From Candidatus Woesearchaeota archaeon (GTDB lineage: Archaea > Nanobdellota > Nanobdellia > SCGC-AAA011-G17 > PNOQ01), in assembly GCA_964471565.1 (NCBI GenBank), contig CAYYFK010000002.1, forward strand, positions 849-64,848: a DNA stretch of 64,000 nt, read 5' to 3'. Made by a program: the position numbers and the translations under genes. The notes beneath the pieces were generated by a model, which saw only the letters and a list, made by a program, of their open reading frames with translations, ran no database searches and was not told where the DNA came from. Shown piece after piece: positions 4,777-38,123 of the stretch (positions within the stretch are counted from its first letter, which is position 1; each line of letters begins with the position of its first letter).

Positions 4777-5433
4777 TTAAATCTTACTAATATCTCTTAA
4801 AGAAACAATACCTTTTCCTTCCAGTCTTGGGCAACAAGTATTAACCCATACTTCAATATCATTAAAATCTTCCAATCTATTTACATCTATTTCATTTGCA
4901 ATAAAAACATAAGATTCTTTTCCACAAGTTTCTTTGAATTTTAGGGCAGCCTTTAATGAATTTTGTCCAGGCTTTGTAGAAACAATTATCCCAATCTTAT
5001 CTGCCATTAAATATTTGGAAATTTTAGCTTTACGTCTTTTTTCCAATAATTCTAATTCTGATTCAGCAAATTTTGAAAATTTTTCAGTCACAGGATTCAA
5101 AAAATATAATTTCTTAATTTTAGTTGAATCTATTAATTCTAATGGATGAAACTCTCCACTCCCGATAAATAAAAAAGCACCTACTTTGTCCTTTAATTGA
5201 ATTGCTTTCCCAGCATTGCAACCAACCATTTGTCCAGCAATAAAAACCTTCTTTCCTTCCTTTTCTAAATATTTTTTAACATCATCTAAATATTTCACAA
5301 ACTGAATAGAGGAAACCAGGCCAATACTTTTTTCTTTAATTTTTATTTTTTTTAAGGATTTATCTATATTAATCTCATCAACTTCGGCTGGTACAAAAAC
5401 AGTCTTAATTCCTTGAATATTTCTTTCTTCCAT
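4777..5433 (-). CDS. dph2: Dph2-like diphthamide biosynthesis radical-SAM enzyme, N-terminally truncated two-domain form
   Basis: Recalled similarity to Pyrococcus Dph2 from about residue 100 onward: VGCNAGK, FIGSGEFHPLEL, GIIVSTKPGQ, CCPR; first Cys-bearing domain is missing. Confidence 0.6.
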   Translation of the reverse strand: MEERNIQGIKTVFVPAEVDEINIDKSLKKIKIKEKSIGLVSSIQFVKYLDDVKKYLEKEGKKVFIAGQMVGCNAGKAIQLKDKVGAFLFIGSGEFHPLELIDSTKIKKLYFLNPVTEKFSKFAESELELLEKRRKAKISKYLMADKIGIIVSTKPGQNSLKAALKFKETCGKESYVFIANEIDVNRLEDFNDIEVWVNTCCPRLEGKGIVSLRDISKI

Positions 5434-5957
5434 TATTTTTTCTTAATCTTACTAACTTCAGCTTTATCCGAAATTATAGCAGAGTTTCCAGAGGGATCCT
5501 CTATAACTATTTTCATAGGAAGATCCCCAAACTTTATTTTTCTTATTTTCTTCAATAAATTCTTAGCAGATTTCTTAACAGAGGGATCATCAGTATTATC
5601 TCTTTGTTCCTCAATCACTTTTTCAAATTTTTCAATAACTCCTTCAACATTAGAAATAAAACCGTCTGAACCTTCACCTGGCTCCATACTCATCCTCAAG
5701 GTAGGAACCTTAACCAAAGCATTGGATGATTTCACAACTCTAACTTTCATATCTTCTTCAGAAGTTGTTTCAAATGTGACCTTTACAGGATCTTTCTCCT
5801 CAACAGCTTCAATATCTGCCTTAGAAAATCCACAATCTTCACAACAGATACTAAAAACAAAAGTTTTCCCAAAATAAGGAACATCTATTTCTTTTTCCAT
5901 TAATGTTGCCTTTTTCTTCCCACAAACTGGGCAAGGCTGATTTTTTAATTCATCCAT
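5433..5957 (-). CDS. ZPR1-type zinc-finger protein
   Basis: CPVCG...PYFG...ICCEDCGF pattern of the ZPR1 zinc ribbon plus jelly-roll; stop overlaps the Dph2-like start. Confidence 0.65.
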   Translation of the reverse strand: MDELKNQPCPVCGKKKATLMEKEIDVPYFGKTFVFSICCEDCGFSKADIEAVEEKDPVKVTFETTSEEDMKVRVVKSSNALVKVPTLRMSMEPGEGSDGFISNVEGVIEKFEKVIEEQRDNTDDPSVKKSAKNLLKKIRKIKFGDLPMKIVIEDPSGNSAIISDKAEVSKIKKK

Positions 5958-7519: not shown

Positions 7520-7595
7520 AATTATAAATTTAGTGGAAATGTAACATTAATAAAGTTTACTAAAATTTTATAAGCTAAGATATAATGATAAAATT

Positions 7596-36514: not shown

Positions 36515-36533
36515 ACAATGGAAGTACATTCAA

Positions 36534-36547
36534 TATATTTATAAAAG
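36534..36547 (-). promoter_or_regulatory. TATA box for tRNA-Cys
   Basis: Minus-strand cttttataaatata centred about 27 nt upstream of the tRNA 5' end. Confidence 0.4.
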
Positions 36548-36575
36548 TTTTCTCCACCCAGATTTAACTAAAAAA

Positions 36576-37088
36576 ATGAAAATTTCAAGAAAAGTAAGAA
36601 ATGGAGTAACAATAGCAATACTATCTTTAATGCCATTCATAGCTAGCGATACAAGTAAAAAACAAACCGAACAAGTACTAAAAAAGGCTGAAAATATGAG
36701 ATTAATCAATGAATATGATATTTCTCAATTAAATCTTTCAACAAAAGAAGAAAAAGAGTTACAAGCAAGAGTAGAAGAAAAACTAGAAGCTTACACACCA
36801 AAAACAAAATTTGCTCTACCATACATTGGATCAGATGTAAAAACAGAATTACAAGGTATAGACAGAGAAGGGTTCACACTAAAATACAGATTAAATTCAG
36901 ATTTGCCAATCCAATTCAGATTGGGAATGGGGACAAAAACTAAAACAAAATTCAATGGAAATTCAAGTATAGAGGAAATAAACTTTGATCTGTCTAGAAA
37001 GATATTTGGAGCAAACACATTATACCAAGTCAATATATCCCAAGACAATCAACCAGAATATAGGTTCTCATTAAATTTTAATTTTTAA
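36576..37088 (+). CDS. hypothetical secreted/membrane-anchored protein
   Basis: Start moved to the internal Met (MKISRKV...) because the track ORF overlaps tRNA-Cys; N-terminal hydrophobic segment. Confidence 0.4.
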   Translation: MKISRKVRNGVTIAILSLMPFIASDTSKKQTEQVLKKAENMRLINEYDISQLNLSTKEEKELQARVEEKLEAYTPKTKFALPYIGSDVKTELQGIDREGFTLKYRLNSDLPIQFRLGMGTKTKTKFNGNSSIEEINFDLSRKIFGANTLYQVNISQDNQPEYRFSLNFNF

Positions 37089-37094
37089 AAAGAG

Positions 37095-37216
37095 CGGACC
37101 GGAAGGGATTTGAACCCTCGACCCCTAGCTTTCTTCAACTCAGTTTAGAAGGCCTACACAGAAGCATACTAACGCAAAACTTCTTTAGTGCTCTATCCAA
37201 GCTGAGCTACCGATCC
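37095..37216 (-). tRNA. tRNA-like gene with about 50 nt of intervening sequence (intron or introns; anticodon unresolved)
   Basis: Minus strand: acceptor GGATCGG pairs with CCGGTCC (U4-G69); canonical D-arm GTAGCTCAGCTTGGATAGAGC; T-arm GAGGG-TTCAAAT-CCCTT; discriminator G; about 70 nt between D-arm and variable region where only 17-23 nt are expected. Confidence 0.5.
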
Positions 37217-37217
37217 A

Positions 37218-38063
37218 CTAAAGTTTAAGAGCTCCAATATCATTTATAAATTTATCTACAACACTCTTTTTACTACACCAAATCACCCAAGAATTGTTCG
37301 CTTTATCAAAATAAGGGGGTCTTACAGAAAGTCCAACAAATCGAAATAATAAATAAACCTGATTTAAAAATTTCTTTGATTTTTGCCTTAATTGAAAACA
37401 TAATTTTCCTCTATGAAAATATTTATTCCCATCGCTATCCATCAATCCCCTTAGAAAATACTTTATATAAACAGAATCATTTTTTATTTTAGCTGGAACT
37501 CTAATGGAATCATATTTCTCACCAATAGGAATTTCATAATAAGTGTTCAAGAAAAATAATAAAGCCTTAGAATAGATACAAACATCATAACAGCCCTTGC
37601 CCTTATGACAACTTGGCCTAATTCCAAAAAGATGCTCCATTAATTCAGAAACGTGATTTATTCTCTCTTTCCCTTTAACAGCAATCCTAACAGAATAACT
37701 TTGCCTCTTTAATTCCCTTTCTTTACTTATACAAAGACATCCATCTCCTAACAACAAACCCAAAAAGTAATACAAACGAAAATCCACATTTTCTGGAAGA
37801 TTAATTGTATTCCCACTATTAATAGACAAAGAACTAACATTTACTCTTTCAATATTATTTTTTTCACAAATATCAATTAAACAAGAAACCGGAATAGGTC
37901 TTTCTTTTCGTTTCCAATAATAAATAGATCTTTCAGAAACCCCTTCAACCTCTTTAGGATTTAAATTTGAAATAGTTTCTTCAAGGGCAAGATCATTAAA
38001 AAGGATGCAAATATTCTTTTTATTCGATATCAATCTTTTTAAATCTTTAACACCCAATTCCAT
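37218..38063 (-). CDS. LAGLIDADG-family homing-endonuclease-like protein (two motifs)
   Basis: YYFLGLLLGDGCL and KYFLRGLMDSDGNKYF dodecapeptide motifs; start moved to MELGVKDL (ATG 38063) because the upstream 42 codons read through the promoter element. Confidence 0.65.
   Translation of the reverse strand: MELGVKDLKRLISNKKNICILFNDLALEETISNLNPKEVEGVSERSIYYWKRKERPIPVSCLIDICEKNNIERVNVSSLSINSGNTINLPENVDFRLYYFLGLLLGDGCLCISKERELKRQSYSVRIAVKGKERINHVSELMEHLFGIRPSCHKGKGCYDVCIYSKALLFFLNTYYEIPIGEKYDSIRVPAKIKNDSVYIKYFLRGLMDSDGNKYFHRGKLCFQLRQKSKKFLNQVYLLFRFVGLSVRPPYFDKANNSWVIWCSKKSVVDKFINDIGALKL
37243..37256 (-). promoter_or_regulatory. candidate TATA box for the tRNA-like gene, inside the 3' end of the LAGLIDADG ORF
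   Basis: Minus-strand taaatttataaa about 30 nt upstream of the tRNA-like 5' end. Confidence 0.3.
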
Positions 38064-38083: not shown

Positions 38084-38123
38084 ATTTATAAATTATTTCC
38101 GCGTGCGTGACAAGCTGACAAGA
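38084..38123 (-). promoter_or_regulatory. TATA box plus upstream GC-rich direct-repeat box (copy B)
   Basis: Minus-strand CTTGTCAGCTTGTCACGCACGCGGAAATAATTTATAAAT, about 21 nt upstream of the LAGLIDADG ATG; matches copy A at 33 of 35 upstream positions. Confidence 0.45.

What the first reader, a model, noticed from the sequence alone, without database searches (positions are those of the whole stretch)
37095..38063. LAGLIDADG endonuclease gene stops 2 nt before the aberrant tRNA-like gene
The double-motif LAGLIDADG ORF (LGLLLGDGCL and LRGLMDSDGN) ends with TAG at 37218-37220, and the tRNA-like acceptor begins at 37216, same strand; a TATA-like box for the tRNA lies inside the ORF 3' end. LAGLIDADG enzymes are normally intron- or intein-borne. 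Direct juxtaposition with an intron-bearing tRNA-like gene suggests a degenerate or unusual mobile intron/homing arrangement, or co-transcription with RNase P processing.
Basis: partly seen in the sequence, partly recalled or inferred. Interest (0 to 1): 0.6.

Follow-up and report, generated by a model that had tools for sequence, protein, structure and literature searches.

The report
Homing endonuclease gene fused to tRNA-Arg
A free-standing LAGLIDADG endonuclease gene sits exactly at the 5' edge of a genuine two-intron tRNA-Arg(UCU) gene and carries that tRNA's promoter in its last codons; the same arrangement recurs across a group of tiny (DPANN) archaea, comes and goes together with the tRNA intron, and may show how such introns spread.

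Summary
The minus-strand ORF 38063-37218 (281 aa, two LAGLIDADG motifs) stops 1 nt before a tRNA that starts at 37216. The tRNA is not aberrant. Removing a 32-nt intron at 29/30 and a 15-nt intron at 37/38 gives a perfect tRNA-Arg(UCU).

The protein core matches I-DmoI and archaeal intein endonucleases, and both catalytic Asp residues are invariant in the family alignment. In every homologous locus I could read, the ORF abuts or overlaps tRNA-Arg(UCU). The tRNA's TATA box lies inside the conserved C-terminal codons.

Syntenic relatives lack both the ORF and the intron. The ORF/intron association is 16/18 against 23/72 (not phylogeny-corrected). One copy is a pseudogene. However, ORF divergence tracks the neighbouring housekeeping genes, so inheritance looks mainly vertical.

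Other LAGLIDADG ORFs abut tRNA-Cys and tRNA-Leu genes in the same way.

Best reading: a free-standing homing endonuclease gene that homes to the tRNA locus, with the introns as linked passengers or as protection of the target site. Cleavage activity and the target site are untested.

The parts
38099..38122 (-). GC-rich box CTTGTCAGCTTGTCACGCACGCGG just upstream of the ORF's TATA box; possible operator, function unknown
   Evidence: Conserved in the 70%-identical ortholog locus L001 (CTTGTCAGCTTGCCACGCACGCAG). L005 has a comparable GC-rich stretch at the same place. Function not tested.
38085..38092 (-). TATA box (TTTATAAA) of the endonuclease gene, 29 nt upstream of the ATG; implies a leaderless or near-leaderless mRNA
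   Evidence: Read from the sequence. The TATA-to-ATG distance is 29-32 nt in the ORF+ loci where a box was scored.
37218..38063 (-). Free-standing double-motif LAGLIDADG endonuclease gene, 281 aa plus stop
   Evidence: ORF list. Pfam LAGLIDADG_3 at 5.7e-9. AF2 model pLDDT 90.9. Foldseek finds I-DmoI at target-normalised TM 0.83 and rmsd 2.2-2.9 A, plus archaeal intein endonucleases. About 62 full-length homolog clusters.
37788..38063 (-). N-terminal accessory domain (aa 1-92), conserved FSxRSYYFW..RPIP; possibly an XRE-like helix-turn-helix DNA-binding module
   Evidence: Conserved in alignment A1. Separate AF2 model pLDDT 88. Foldseek finds only non-significant hits (E > 1), most of them XRE-type HTH proteins, so the assignment is inconclusive.
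37734..37763 (-). LAGLIDADG motif 1 (LGLLLGDGCL) with invariant catalytic Asp107
   Evidence: D107 is invariant in 20 family members. It aligns with the ADG of the TliVMA intein endonuclease.
37425..37454 (-). LAGLIDADG motif 2 (LRGLMDSDGN) with invariant catalytic Asp211
   Evidence: D211, G212 and N213 are invariant. Aligns with the second motif of the intein endonuclease.
37243..37250 (-). TATA box of tRNA-Arg(UCU), embedded in the codons of the conserved C-terminal peptide (V)DKFIND, 34 nt upstream of tRNA +1
   Evidence: Read from the sequence. TTTATAAA sits 32-34 nt upstream of tRNA +1 in most ORF+ loci; the script gave 39 nt for L002 and no reliable value for L008 and L012. The window's tRNA-Cys has a TATA at about -31.
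37095..37216 (-). tRNA-Arg(UCU) gene with two introns; exons at 37216-37186, 37153-37146 and 37130-37095
   Evidence: The in-silico spliced sequence is a perfect cloverleaf that ARAGORN calls tRNA-Arg(tct). Orthologous tRNAs follow the ORF in all related loci.
37154..37185 (-). Intron 1, 32 nt, non-canonical position 29/30 in the anticodon stem, with a bulge-helix-bulge (BHB) motif: H2 GCAC/GUGU, bulges UAA and AGG, H3 AGAAG/CUUCU
   Evidence: The BHB helices are the RNAfold minimum-energy structure in the window. In L005 the same shape forms from different sequences (AGCG/CGCU and AAUGG/CCAUU), which is compensatory support.
37131..37145 (-). Intron 2, 15 nt, canonical position 37/38; central helix CUUC/GAAG flanked by 3-nt bulges UAA and AAA
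   Evidence: A 37/38 intron of 12-46 nt is present in 16 of 18 ORF+ loci.
37080..37094 (-). T-rich tract (CTCTTTTTAAAAATT) after the tRNA 3' end; likely archaeal terminator
   Evidence: Read from the sequence. The terminator role is inferred from established knowledge of archaeal oligo-T terminators.

Best explanation
The ORF is a free-standing, monomeric, I-DmoI-like LAGLIDADG homing endonuclease gene. Its fixed genomic home is the -1/+1 boundary of the tRNA-Arg(UCU) gene in a clade of AT-rich DPANN archaea (MAGs labelled Pacearchaeota, Woesearchaeota or Nanoarchaeota).

Shown:
- The element brings its own TATA box, from which a leaderless mRNA would start.
- Its last about 12 codons contain the TATA box that drives the downstream tRNA, so the insertion does not silence the tRNA.
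- In many relatives the reading frame runs 10, 24 or 39 nt into the tRNA before it meets a stop.
- The adjacent tRNA is a functional-looking gene with two BHB introns.

Inferred mechanism:
- The enzyme makes a double-strand break in alleles of the tRNA-Arg(UCU) locus that lack the ORF.
- Repair from an ORF-bearing copy then copies in the ORF.
- Because the introns lie only 30-40 bp from the ORF, repair would usually copy them as well. This is trans or 'collaborative' homing.
- The introns would then be either hitch-hikers or interruptions of the target site that protect the carrier genome.

Today the element looks like an old, mostly vertically inherited resident that is occasionally lost.
For: Endonuclease identity:
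- Pfam match, two motifs and invariant D107/D211.
- PDB profile hits to archaeal intein endonucleases (2.5e-10) and I-DmoI (about 1e-7).
- AF2 pLDDT 90.9, and Foldseek target-normalised TM 0.83 to I-DmoI.

Strict linkage:
- In all readable homologous loci (L001-L015, L066, L161-L163, L166-L171) the ORF ends between -6 and +39 relative to tRNA-Arg(UCU) +1.
- The TATA box sits 32-34 nt upstream of +1 in most of them.

Presence/absence at the same locus:
- L011 and L009 (ORF+) against L137 (ORF-): same upstream gene, and mature tRNA 100% and 97% identical.
- L002 against L160 and L150.
- L015 against L099 and L144.

Insertion point:
- L163 keeps an orphaned ancestral tRNA promoter and leader, ending where tRNA +1 would be, immediately upstream of the element.

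Dispensability and sporadic distribution:
- The L015 copy has lost its N-terminal domain and carries an in-frame stop.
- Only 1 of 145 tRNA-Arg(UCU) loci found by a DNA pattern carries the ORF.

Intron association:
- ORF+ loci are 16 intron+ and 2 intron-. ORF- loci are 23 intron+ and 49 intron-. Odds ratio 17, Fisher p = 2e-5, not corrected for phylogeny.
- The nearest ORF- relatives of ORF+ tRNAs are mostly intronless.

Generality:
- Other, distant LAGLIDADG ORFs abut tRNA-Cys(GCA), tRNA-Leu(GAG) and tRNA-Leu(UAG) in the same way.

Precedent:
- Free-standing endonucleases mobilising an adjacent intron are documented in phages (PMC2790892, PMC6083498).
- A free-standing endonuclease is documented in a tRNA gene cluster (PMC2330249).
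Against: - No cleavage activity or target site is known.
- ORF identity between genomes equals that of the flanking housekeeping genes: window-L001 70% against LeuRS 72%; L006-L007 79% against 75-84%; L002/L161/L162/L163 48-57% against 45-55% for the RNase Z-like gene.
- ORF composition equals the host's (GC 29% against 30%, GC3 20% against 21%). There is therefore no sign of recent horizontal transfer.
- Selection on the ORF is as strong as on host genes, which a purely selfish, fixed endonuclease gene should not show.
- Of the 18 contigs with an identical LeuRS, every displayed place that extends far enough carries the ORF, so no polymorphism is visible in that population.
- Two intact copies (L008 and L162, 56% identical to each other) sit next to intronless tRNAs, so the intron is not obligatory for tolerance.
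- No ORF relics were found upstream of ORF- tRNAs.
- The family is absent from viral contigs.
Confidence: 0.55

Rival explanations
1. Domesticated LAGLIDADG protein. An old endonuclease gene is retained by the host for a cellular role, for example site-specific DNA binding or regulation at the tRNA-Arg(UCU)/own promoter, or a nuclease role analogous to yeast HO. It stays in place because the tRNA's promoter is embedded in it.
For: - The ORF co-diverges with neighbouring housekeeping genes, and its composition is identical to the host's.
- Purifying selection is strong over the whole length, including the N-terminal domain.
- It is fixed in the sampled population.
- A conserved CC(C/T)TCTTATA motif lies between the TATA box and the ATG in most members. 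A GC-rich box sits upstream of the TATA in the window's subclade. Either would suit autoregulation.
- Two intact copies sit beside intronless tRNAs.
Against: - Both catalytic Asp residues are invariant, whereas domesticated regulators such as WhiA have lost them. The WhiA match is only E = 0.16.
- Syntenic relatives live without the gene.
- One copy is a pseudogene.
- Distribution is sporadic: 1 of 145 pattern-selected loci, and 12 hits among 185,579 species genomes with fairly strict search patterns.
- Several unrelated LAGLIDADG families sit next to different tRNA genes, which looks like site-specific invasion rather than one host function.
Confidence: 0.25
2. tRNA-specific RNA factor (maturase-like). 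The protein binds pre-tRNA-Arg(UCU) and assists removal of its BHB intron(s), as some LAGLIDADG proteins assist group I intron splicing. The ORF would then be kept only where the intron exists.
For: - ORF and intron co-occur in 16 of 18 loci, and ORF-less relatives are mostly intronless.
- Bifunctional LAGLIDADG endonuclease/maturases exist; I-AniI (1p8k) is among the fold matches.
Against: - BHB introns are cut by the archaeal splicing endonuclease and are not known to need a maturase (established knowledge).
- 23 ORF-less loci carry introns without the ORF.
- The L015 pseudogene coexists with a retained intron.
- L008 and L162 keep intact ORFs beside intronless tRNAs.
- Intron sequences and lengths vary from 12 to 46 nt, with only the structurally required GAAG conserved.
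- Analogous ORFs abut intronless tRNA-Cys and tRNA-Leu genes.
Confidence: 0.07
3. Incidental neighbour or decayed mobile-intron remnant. The ORF is a leftover of an intron or intein element that merely happens to lie next to a tRNA.
For: LAGLIDADG genes are normally intron- or intein-borne. Default tRNA finders do not call this tRNA.
Against: - The same zero-spacing arrangement occurs in all readable homologous loci at 35-70% protein identity and in different gene neighbourhoods.
- The ORF is intact and conserved.
- The tRNA is complete and needs no upstream exon.
Confidence: 0.03

Closest known systems
I-DmoI and related archaeal intron- or intein-encoded LAGLIDADG endonucleases (I-Tsp061I, PI-PfuI, TliVMA intein endonuclease)
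   Same: Monomeric double-motif fold (Foldseek target-normalised TM 0.83, rmsd 2.2-2.9 A to I-DmoI), catalytic acidic residue at the end of each motif, archaeal origin.
   Different: It is not inside an rRNA intron or an intein. It is free-standing, carries an extra 92-aa N-terminal domain, and is always fused to the 5' edge of a tRNA gene.
Collaborative or trans homing in phages: F-CphI with the psbA group I intron (PMC6083498); T4 MobE with the I-TevIII-defective nrdB intron (PMC2790892)
   Same: A free-standing endonuclease gene lies next to an intron-containing gene, and ORF and intron are inherited as a linked pair. The ORF/intron co-occurrence seen here is what that model predicts.
   Different: Those cases involve self-splicing group I introns in protein genes of phages, with HNH or Endo VII-type enzymes. 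Here the introns are protein-spliced BHB introns in a cellular archaeal tRNA gene and the enzyme is LAGLIDADG. Cleavage at the intron insertion site is not shown, and two ORF+ loci lack the intron.
Phage T4 SegB, a free-standing GIY-YIG endonuclease in the tRNA gene cluster (PMC2330249)
   Same: A free-standing homing endonuclease gene embedded among tRNA genes that promotes inheritance of the tRNA region.
   Different: Different nuclease family, a phage rather than a cell, no overlap with the tRNA gene, and no promoter sharing.
Yeast HO (F-SceII) and bacterial WhiA, both domesticated LAGLIDADG proteins
   Same: Free-standing LAGLIDADG scaffold joined to an extra DNA-binding module and inherited vertically. 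This resembles the co-divergence seen here.
   Different: WhiA has lost its catalytic residues and carries a C-terminal HTH; here the Asp residues are invariant and the extra domain is N-terminal. HO has zinc fingers and a defined host role, and no host role is evident here.

Membership tests
LAGLIDADG homing endonuclease, monomeric double-motif (I-DmoI type) | Two LAGLIDADG motifs in one chain | tested here: met
   LGLLLGDGCL and LRGLMDSDGN are present. Pfam LAGLIDADG_3 matches in two stretches.
LAGLIDADG homing endonuclease, monomeric double-motif (I-DmoI type) | Pseudo-dimeric alpha-beta-beta-alpha-beta-beta-alpha fold | tested here: met
   AF2 pLDDT 90.9. Foldseek to I-DmoI gives target-normalised TM 0.80-0.84 and rmsd 2.2-3.0 A.
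LAGLIDADG homing endonuclease, monomeric double-motif (I-DmoI type) | Metal-binding Asp or Glu at the C-terminal end of each motif | tested here: met
   D107 and D211 are invariant in 20 members.
LAGLIDADG homing endonuclease, monomeric double-motif (I-DmoI type) | Site-specific double-strand cleavage of a long target | not testable with these tools
   Requires biochemistry.
LAGLIDADG homing endonuclease, monomeric double-motif (I-DmoI type) | Encoded within a self-splicing intron, BHB intron or intein | tested here: not met
   The ORF has its own TATA box and ATG and lies outside the tRNA. There are no Hint/intein domains and no flanking exon.
Mobile (homing) genetic element | Presence/absence polymorphism at one precise site in otherwise syntenic genomes | tested here: met
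   L011 and L009 against L137; L002 against L160 and L150; L015 against L099 and L144. L163 keeps an orphaned promoter at the junction.
Mobile (homing) genetic element | Phylogeny discordant with the host, or polymorphism within populations | tested here: not met
   ORF identity tracks the flanking genes. Every displayed place among the 18 contigs with identical LeuRS that extends far enough carries the ORF.
Collaborative/trans homing pair (free-standing endonuclease plus neighbouring intron) | Free-standing endonuclease gene immediately beside an intron-containing gene | tested here: met
Collaborative/trans homing pair (free-standing endonuclease plus neighbouring intron) | Endonuclease gene and intron co-inherited | tested here: inconclusive
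   16/18 against 23/72, Fisher p = 2e-5 uncorrected for phylogeny. About six sister contrasts agree, but L008 and L162 are exceptions.
Collaborative/trans homing pair (free-standing endonuclease plus neighbouring intron) | Enzyme cleaves the intronless allele at or near the intron insertion site, and the intron confers immunity | not testable with these tools
   The target is unknown. An alternative target at the tRNA -1/+1 junction fits equally well.
WhiA-like domesticated LAGLIDADG regulator | Degenerate motifs lacking catalytic acids, plus a C-terminal HTH | tested here: not met
   Catalytic Asp residues are retained and the accessory domain is N-terminal. The PDB profile match to WhiA is E = 0.16.
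Archaeal BHB-intron tRNA gene (the neighbouring tRNA) | Intron removal restores a canonical cloverleaf | tested here: met
   ARAGORN calls the spliced sequence tRNA-Arg(tct), with all four arms paired.
Archaeal BHB-intron tRNA gene (the neighbouring tRNA) | Bulge-helix-bulge motif at both splice sites (4-bp helix between 3-nt bulges) | tested here: met
   Intron 1: GCAC/GUGU with bulges UAA and AGG. This is the minimum-energy fold and is supported by compensatory changes in L005. Its outer helix is weak, so it is a relaxed form. Intron 2: CUUC/GAAG with bulges UAA and AAA.

The most novel reading that the evidence does not exclude
Free-standing LAGLIDADG endonuclease genes parked at the edges of tRNA genes are the missing mobility engine for archaeal BHB tRNA introns. 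By breaking intronless or ORF-less alleles and forcing repair from an ORF+/intron+ copy, they would spread and then lock in short introns that are too small to encode their own endonuclease. This would apply to several tRNA genes (Arg-UCU, Cys-GCA, Leu-GAG, Leu-UAG) across DPANN archaea.
Probability: 0.3. Interest if true: 0.85.

Novelty: new variant of a known kind. Interest (0 to 1): 0.7.

Why it matters
How archaeal tRNA introns are gained, moved and kept is a long-standing open question. They are protein-spliced, tiny, and carry no mobility genes.

This locus offers a concrete, testable candidate mechanism: an endonuclease gene physically fused to the tRNA gene, sharing its promoter, and present or absent together with the intron in syntenic genomes.

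It also shows a previously undescribed architecture. The TATA box of an essential tRNA is encoded inside the conserved C-terminal codons of a selfish-looking gene, and the reading frame often terminates inside the tRNA.

I found no paper describing this in the library searched. The family could also supply new compact, I-DmoI-like, long-target nucleases from mesophilic archaea.

Tried and rejected
tRNA detection:
- Rfam at gathering and E-value thresholds, and default ARAGORN, do not call the tRNA.
- ARAGORN -i forces a poor tRNA-Pro(agg) model with an unpaired long arm, which I rejected.
- The bacterial promoter/terminator scan is irrelevant for an archaeon.

ORF relics and other copies:
- I looked for ORF relics upstream of 113 ORF-less tRNA-Arg(UCU) genes with relaxed tblastn. 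Nothing convincing turned up.
- I looked for the ORF inside long tRNA introns (L116, L139, L122). None was found.
- I looked for the family in viral contigs. Only unrelated LAGLIDADG hits at 25-32% identity appeared.
- I looked for ORF-less variants among contigs with an identical LeuRS. None was found.

N-terminal domain:
- The fold search gave only non-significant XRE-HTH-like hits.

Ideas considered and dropped:
- The CCCTCTTATA motif upstream of the ATG might mimic the anticodon-arm DNA. The similarity is suggestive in L009 but not general, so I did not pursue it.
- A split or permuted tRNA, or a missing 5' exon. The tRNA is complete, so this was rejected.
- An integrated virus or plasmid. 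The neighbours are housekeeping genes and composition is uniform, so this was rejected.
Full report
**Observation**

On the minus strand an ORF runs from the ATG at 38063 to the TAG at 37220-37218 (281 aa). It carries two LAGLIDADG motifs, LGLLLGDGCL at 37763-37734 and LRGLMDSDGN at 37454-37425, and matches Pfam LAGLIDADG_3 at 5.7e-9. One nucleotite later, at 37216, a tRNA acceptor stem begins (GGATCGG), and the gene ends at 37095. A TTTATAAA box at 37250-37243 lies inside the last codons of the ORF, 34 nt upstream of tRNA +1.

**The tRNA is real, not aberrant**

Rfam and default ARAGORN miss the gene, and ARAGORN's intron mode forces an implausible tRNA-Pro model. Reading it by hand resolves it. 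Removing 32 nt at position 29/30 (37185-37154) and 15 nt at the canonical position 37/38 (37145-37131) leaves a 75-nt sequence with all four arms paired and the anticodon loop CUUCUAA. ARAGORN then calls it tRNA-Arg(tct).

Intron 1 forms a bulge-helix-bulge (BHB) motif. The 4-bp helix is GCAC/GUGU, the 3-nt bulges are UAA and AGG, and the inner helix is AGAAG/CUUCU. This is the RNAfold minimum-energy structure. In the homologous locus L005 the same shape is built from different sequences (AGCG/CGCU and AAUGG/CCAUU), which is compensatory support. Intron 2 pairs the anticodon-loop CUUC with an intronic GAAG between bulges UAA and AAA. No upstream 5' exon is needed.

**The protein**

The family has about 62 clusters of full-length homologs of roughly 280 aa at 35-70% identity. 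All come from DPANN-type metagenome assemblies labelled Pacearchaeota, Woesearchaeota or Nanoarchaeota.

An alignment of 20 members shows both catalytic Asp residues invariant (D107, D211). It also shows strong conservation along the whole chain, including a 92-aa N-terminal domain. A profile search of solved structures gives archaeal V-ATPase intein endonucleases (2.5e-10), I-DmoI (about 1e-7) and I-Tsp061I. WhiA scores only 0.16.

The AF2 model (pLDDT 90.9) superposes on I-DmoI with target-normalised TM 0.83 and rmsd 2.2-2.9 A. The N-terminal domain modelled alone (pLDDT 88) has no significant structural match. Its weak top hits are mostly XRE-type helix-turn-helix proteins, so a DNA-binding role is plausible but unproven.

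**The juxtaposition defines the family**

In every homologous locus whose DNA I could read, the ORF is followed at once by tRNA-Arg(UCU). These loci are L001/L004, L002/L003, L005-L015, L066, L161-L163 and the window's near-identical contigs L166-L171.

- The end of the stop codon lies between -6 and +39 relative to tRNA +1.
- In many members the frame reads into the tRNA. It stops at the TAG formed by U8-A9-G10, at the TAG in the D-loop (GGATAG), or in L008 at the TAA in the anticodon loop. This explains the variable C-terminal tails (LP, APVAQPG, ...ASVTQLDRVRPF).
- The conserved C-terminal peptide DNFI(N/K)KI is encoded by GATAATTTTATAAA, which is the tRNA's TATA box. It sits 32-34 nt before +1 in most loci.
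- The window's tRNA-Cys has its TATA at a similar distance.
- The ORF's own TATA lies 29-32 nt before the ATG, implying a leaderless mRNA.

**Evidence that it is an insertion that comes and goes**

I scanned metagenomes and viral contigs with a DNA pattern for the 5' half of this type of tRNA-Arg(UCU). This returned 145 loci, of which only one (L066) has the ORF.

Three syntenic comparisons show a clean difference of about 850 nt between the upstream gene and tRNA +1:
- L011 and L009 (ORF+) against L137 (ORF-), with mature tRNAs 100% and 97% identical.
- L002 against L160 and L150.
- L015 against L099 and L144.

L163 retains, just upstream of the element, an orphaned tRNA promoter and leader typical of ORF-less alleles. 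It ends where tRNA +1 would have been. The copy in L015 is a pseudogene: the N-terminal domain is lost and there is an in-frame stop. The host can therefore dispense with the gene.

**Association with the intron**

Of 18 distinct ORF+ loci, 16 have the 37/38 intron. Three of these, including the window, also have the 29/30 intron. Of 72 unique AT-rich ORF- loci with enough upstream sequence, 23 have an intron. The odds ratio is 17 and Fisher p = 2e-5, without phylogenetic correction.

For most ORF+ tRNAs the closest ORF- relative is intronless. The exceptions are L008 and L162. Their ORFs are intact and 56% identical to each other, and their tRNAs are intronless.

**Evidence against a freely moving element**

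- ORF identity between genomes equals that of neighbouring housekeeping genes: 70% against 72% for LeuRS; 79% against 75-84%; 48-57% against 45-55%.
- Composition matches the host.
- Among 18 contigs with an identical LeuRS, every displayed place that extends far enough carries the ORF.
- No ORF relics lie upstream of ORF-less tRNAs.
- The family is not on viral contigs.

The element therefore looks old, mostly vertically inherited, and under purifying selection.

**A wider pattern**

Among the loci collected, other distantly related double-motif LAGLIDADG ORFs also abut tRNA genes:
- L144 reads through tRNA-Cys(GCA).
- P0134 (L175/L178) lies 23 nt upstream of a multi-intron tRNA-Cys.
- L101 and P0095 (L172) sit at tRNA-Leu(GAG).
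- L138 sits at tRNA-Leu(UAG).
- L006 and L111 abut tRNA 3' ends in convergent orientation.

A profile of three of these ORFs finds at least 336 clusters in DPANN lineages. I read the genomic context of only two of those clusters, so tRNA linkage across that larger family is not established. A separate group of about 320 aa sits between the RFC small and large subunit genes.

**Interpretation**

The best-supported reading is a free-standing homing endonuclease gene whose home is the 5' boundary of tRNA-Arg(UCU). It supplies the tRNA's promoter, so the insertion is harmless.

By inference, it breaks ORF-less alleles and is copied in by repair. The introns, only 30-40 bp away, are then co-converted. 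They are either hitch-hikers, or interruptions of a target that lies in the anticodon arm. The precedents are phage trans and collaborative homing (PMC2790892, PMC6083498) and T4 SegB in a tRNA cluster (PMC2330249).

Three observations keep a domesticated role as the main rival: the vertical inheritance pattern, the strong selection, and the two intronless ORF+ loci. A maturase role is unlikely. Introns persist without the ORF, and the ORF persists without introns.

I found no paper describing free-standing LAGLIDADG genes fused to archaeal tRNA genes in the library searched.

**Verdict**

This is a new variant of a known kind: a free-standing homing endonuclease with trans-homing logic, here applied to archaeal BHB-intron tRNA genes and with promoter sharing. 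Interest 0.7.

Noticed in passing
L144 (ORF 837->28, tRNA-Cys c38-112); L175/L178 1501-2190; L101 4531-5379 and tRNA-Leu 5386-5470; L172 1501-2253 and tRNA-Leu 2238-2356; L138 4798->4085 and tRNA-Leu c4036-4122; L006 7105-7878 and tRNA-Met c7879-7952; L111 645-1406: Other, distantly related free-standing LAGLIDADG ORFs also abut or overlap tRNA genes (Cys-GCA, Leu-GAG, Leu-UAG; convergent with Met and Arg-UCU). A profile of three of them finds at least 336 clusters in DPANN archaea. tRNA-edge residence therefore seems to be a general habit of these genes.
   Followed up: partly
L164 2501-3466; L165 2501-3469: A group of LAGLIDADG proteins of about 320 aa, 28-32% identical to the family studied here (P0063-P0071), sits free-standing between the RFC small-subunit and RFC large-subunit genes in Nanoarchaeota-labelled MAGs.
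   Followed up: partly
window 38099-38122 (minus strand); L001 upstream of 5001: The GC-rich box CTTGTCAGCTTG(T/C)CACGCACGC(G/A)G lies directly upstream of the ORF's TATA box. It is conserved between the window and its 70%-identical ortholog in otherwise AT-rich intergenic DNA. It may be an operator.
   Followed up: no
L006, L008, L009-L012, L162, L163, L066: 8-18 nt upstream of the ORF ATG: A conserved CC(C/T)TCTTATA motif lies between the TATA box and the ATG in most family members. It is absent from the window's subclade. Its position suits an autorepressor site. It loosely resembles the anticodon-arm DNA in L009.
   Followed up: partly
L009 4082-4300; L010 2802-3000; L002 5970-6150; L147: Partial copies of the tRNA-Arg(UCU) 3' end (for example GAATCCTGTCGGGAGCG) are repeated downstream of the gene. 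They look like att-type scars of elements that integrated into this tRNA.
   Followed up: no
L047/L175/L178 (tRNA-Arg(UCU) upstream of the ORF, tRNA-Cys downstream); L014 and L163 tRNA-Cys: Unusual intron positions occur in neighbouring tRNAs: an 11-nt insertion in the T-loop of tRNA-Arg(UCU), and a tRNA-Cys(GCA) with apparent introns in the D-loop, the anticodon region and the T-loop. ARAGORN does not call either gene.
   Followed up: no
window 36515-36550, 37217-37250, 7521-7560: tRNA genes have a TATA box starting 31-35 nt upstream of the mature 5' end. Transcription would therefore begin at or within a few nt of +1, giving near-leaderless pre-tRNAs. This recalls Nanoarchaeum equitans, which lacks RNase P.
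   Followed up: no
L015 3944-4660: The family copy in this Woesearchaeota-labelled MAG is degenerate. The first 50 or so residues are missing and there is an in-frame stop after ...FKFLIGL, while the adjacent tRNA keeps its 23-nt intron.
   Followed up: yes
L002, L161, L162, L163, and the P0014/P0020 contigs: The recurrent host synteny is ribosomal protein S8e, LSM, an RNase Z-like metallo-beta-lactamase, then [ORF] and tRNA-Arg(UCU), often followed by tRNA-Cys(GCA). The window and L001 instead have LeuRS upstream.
   Followed up: partly
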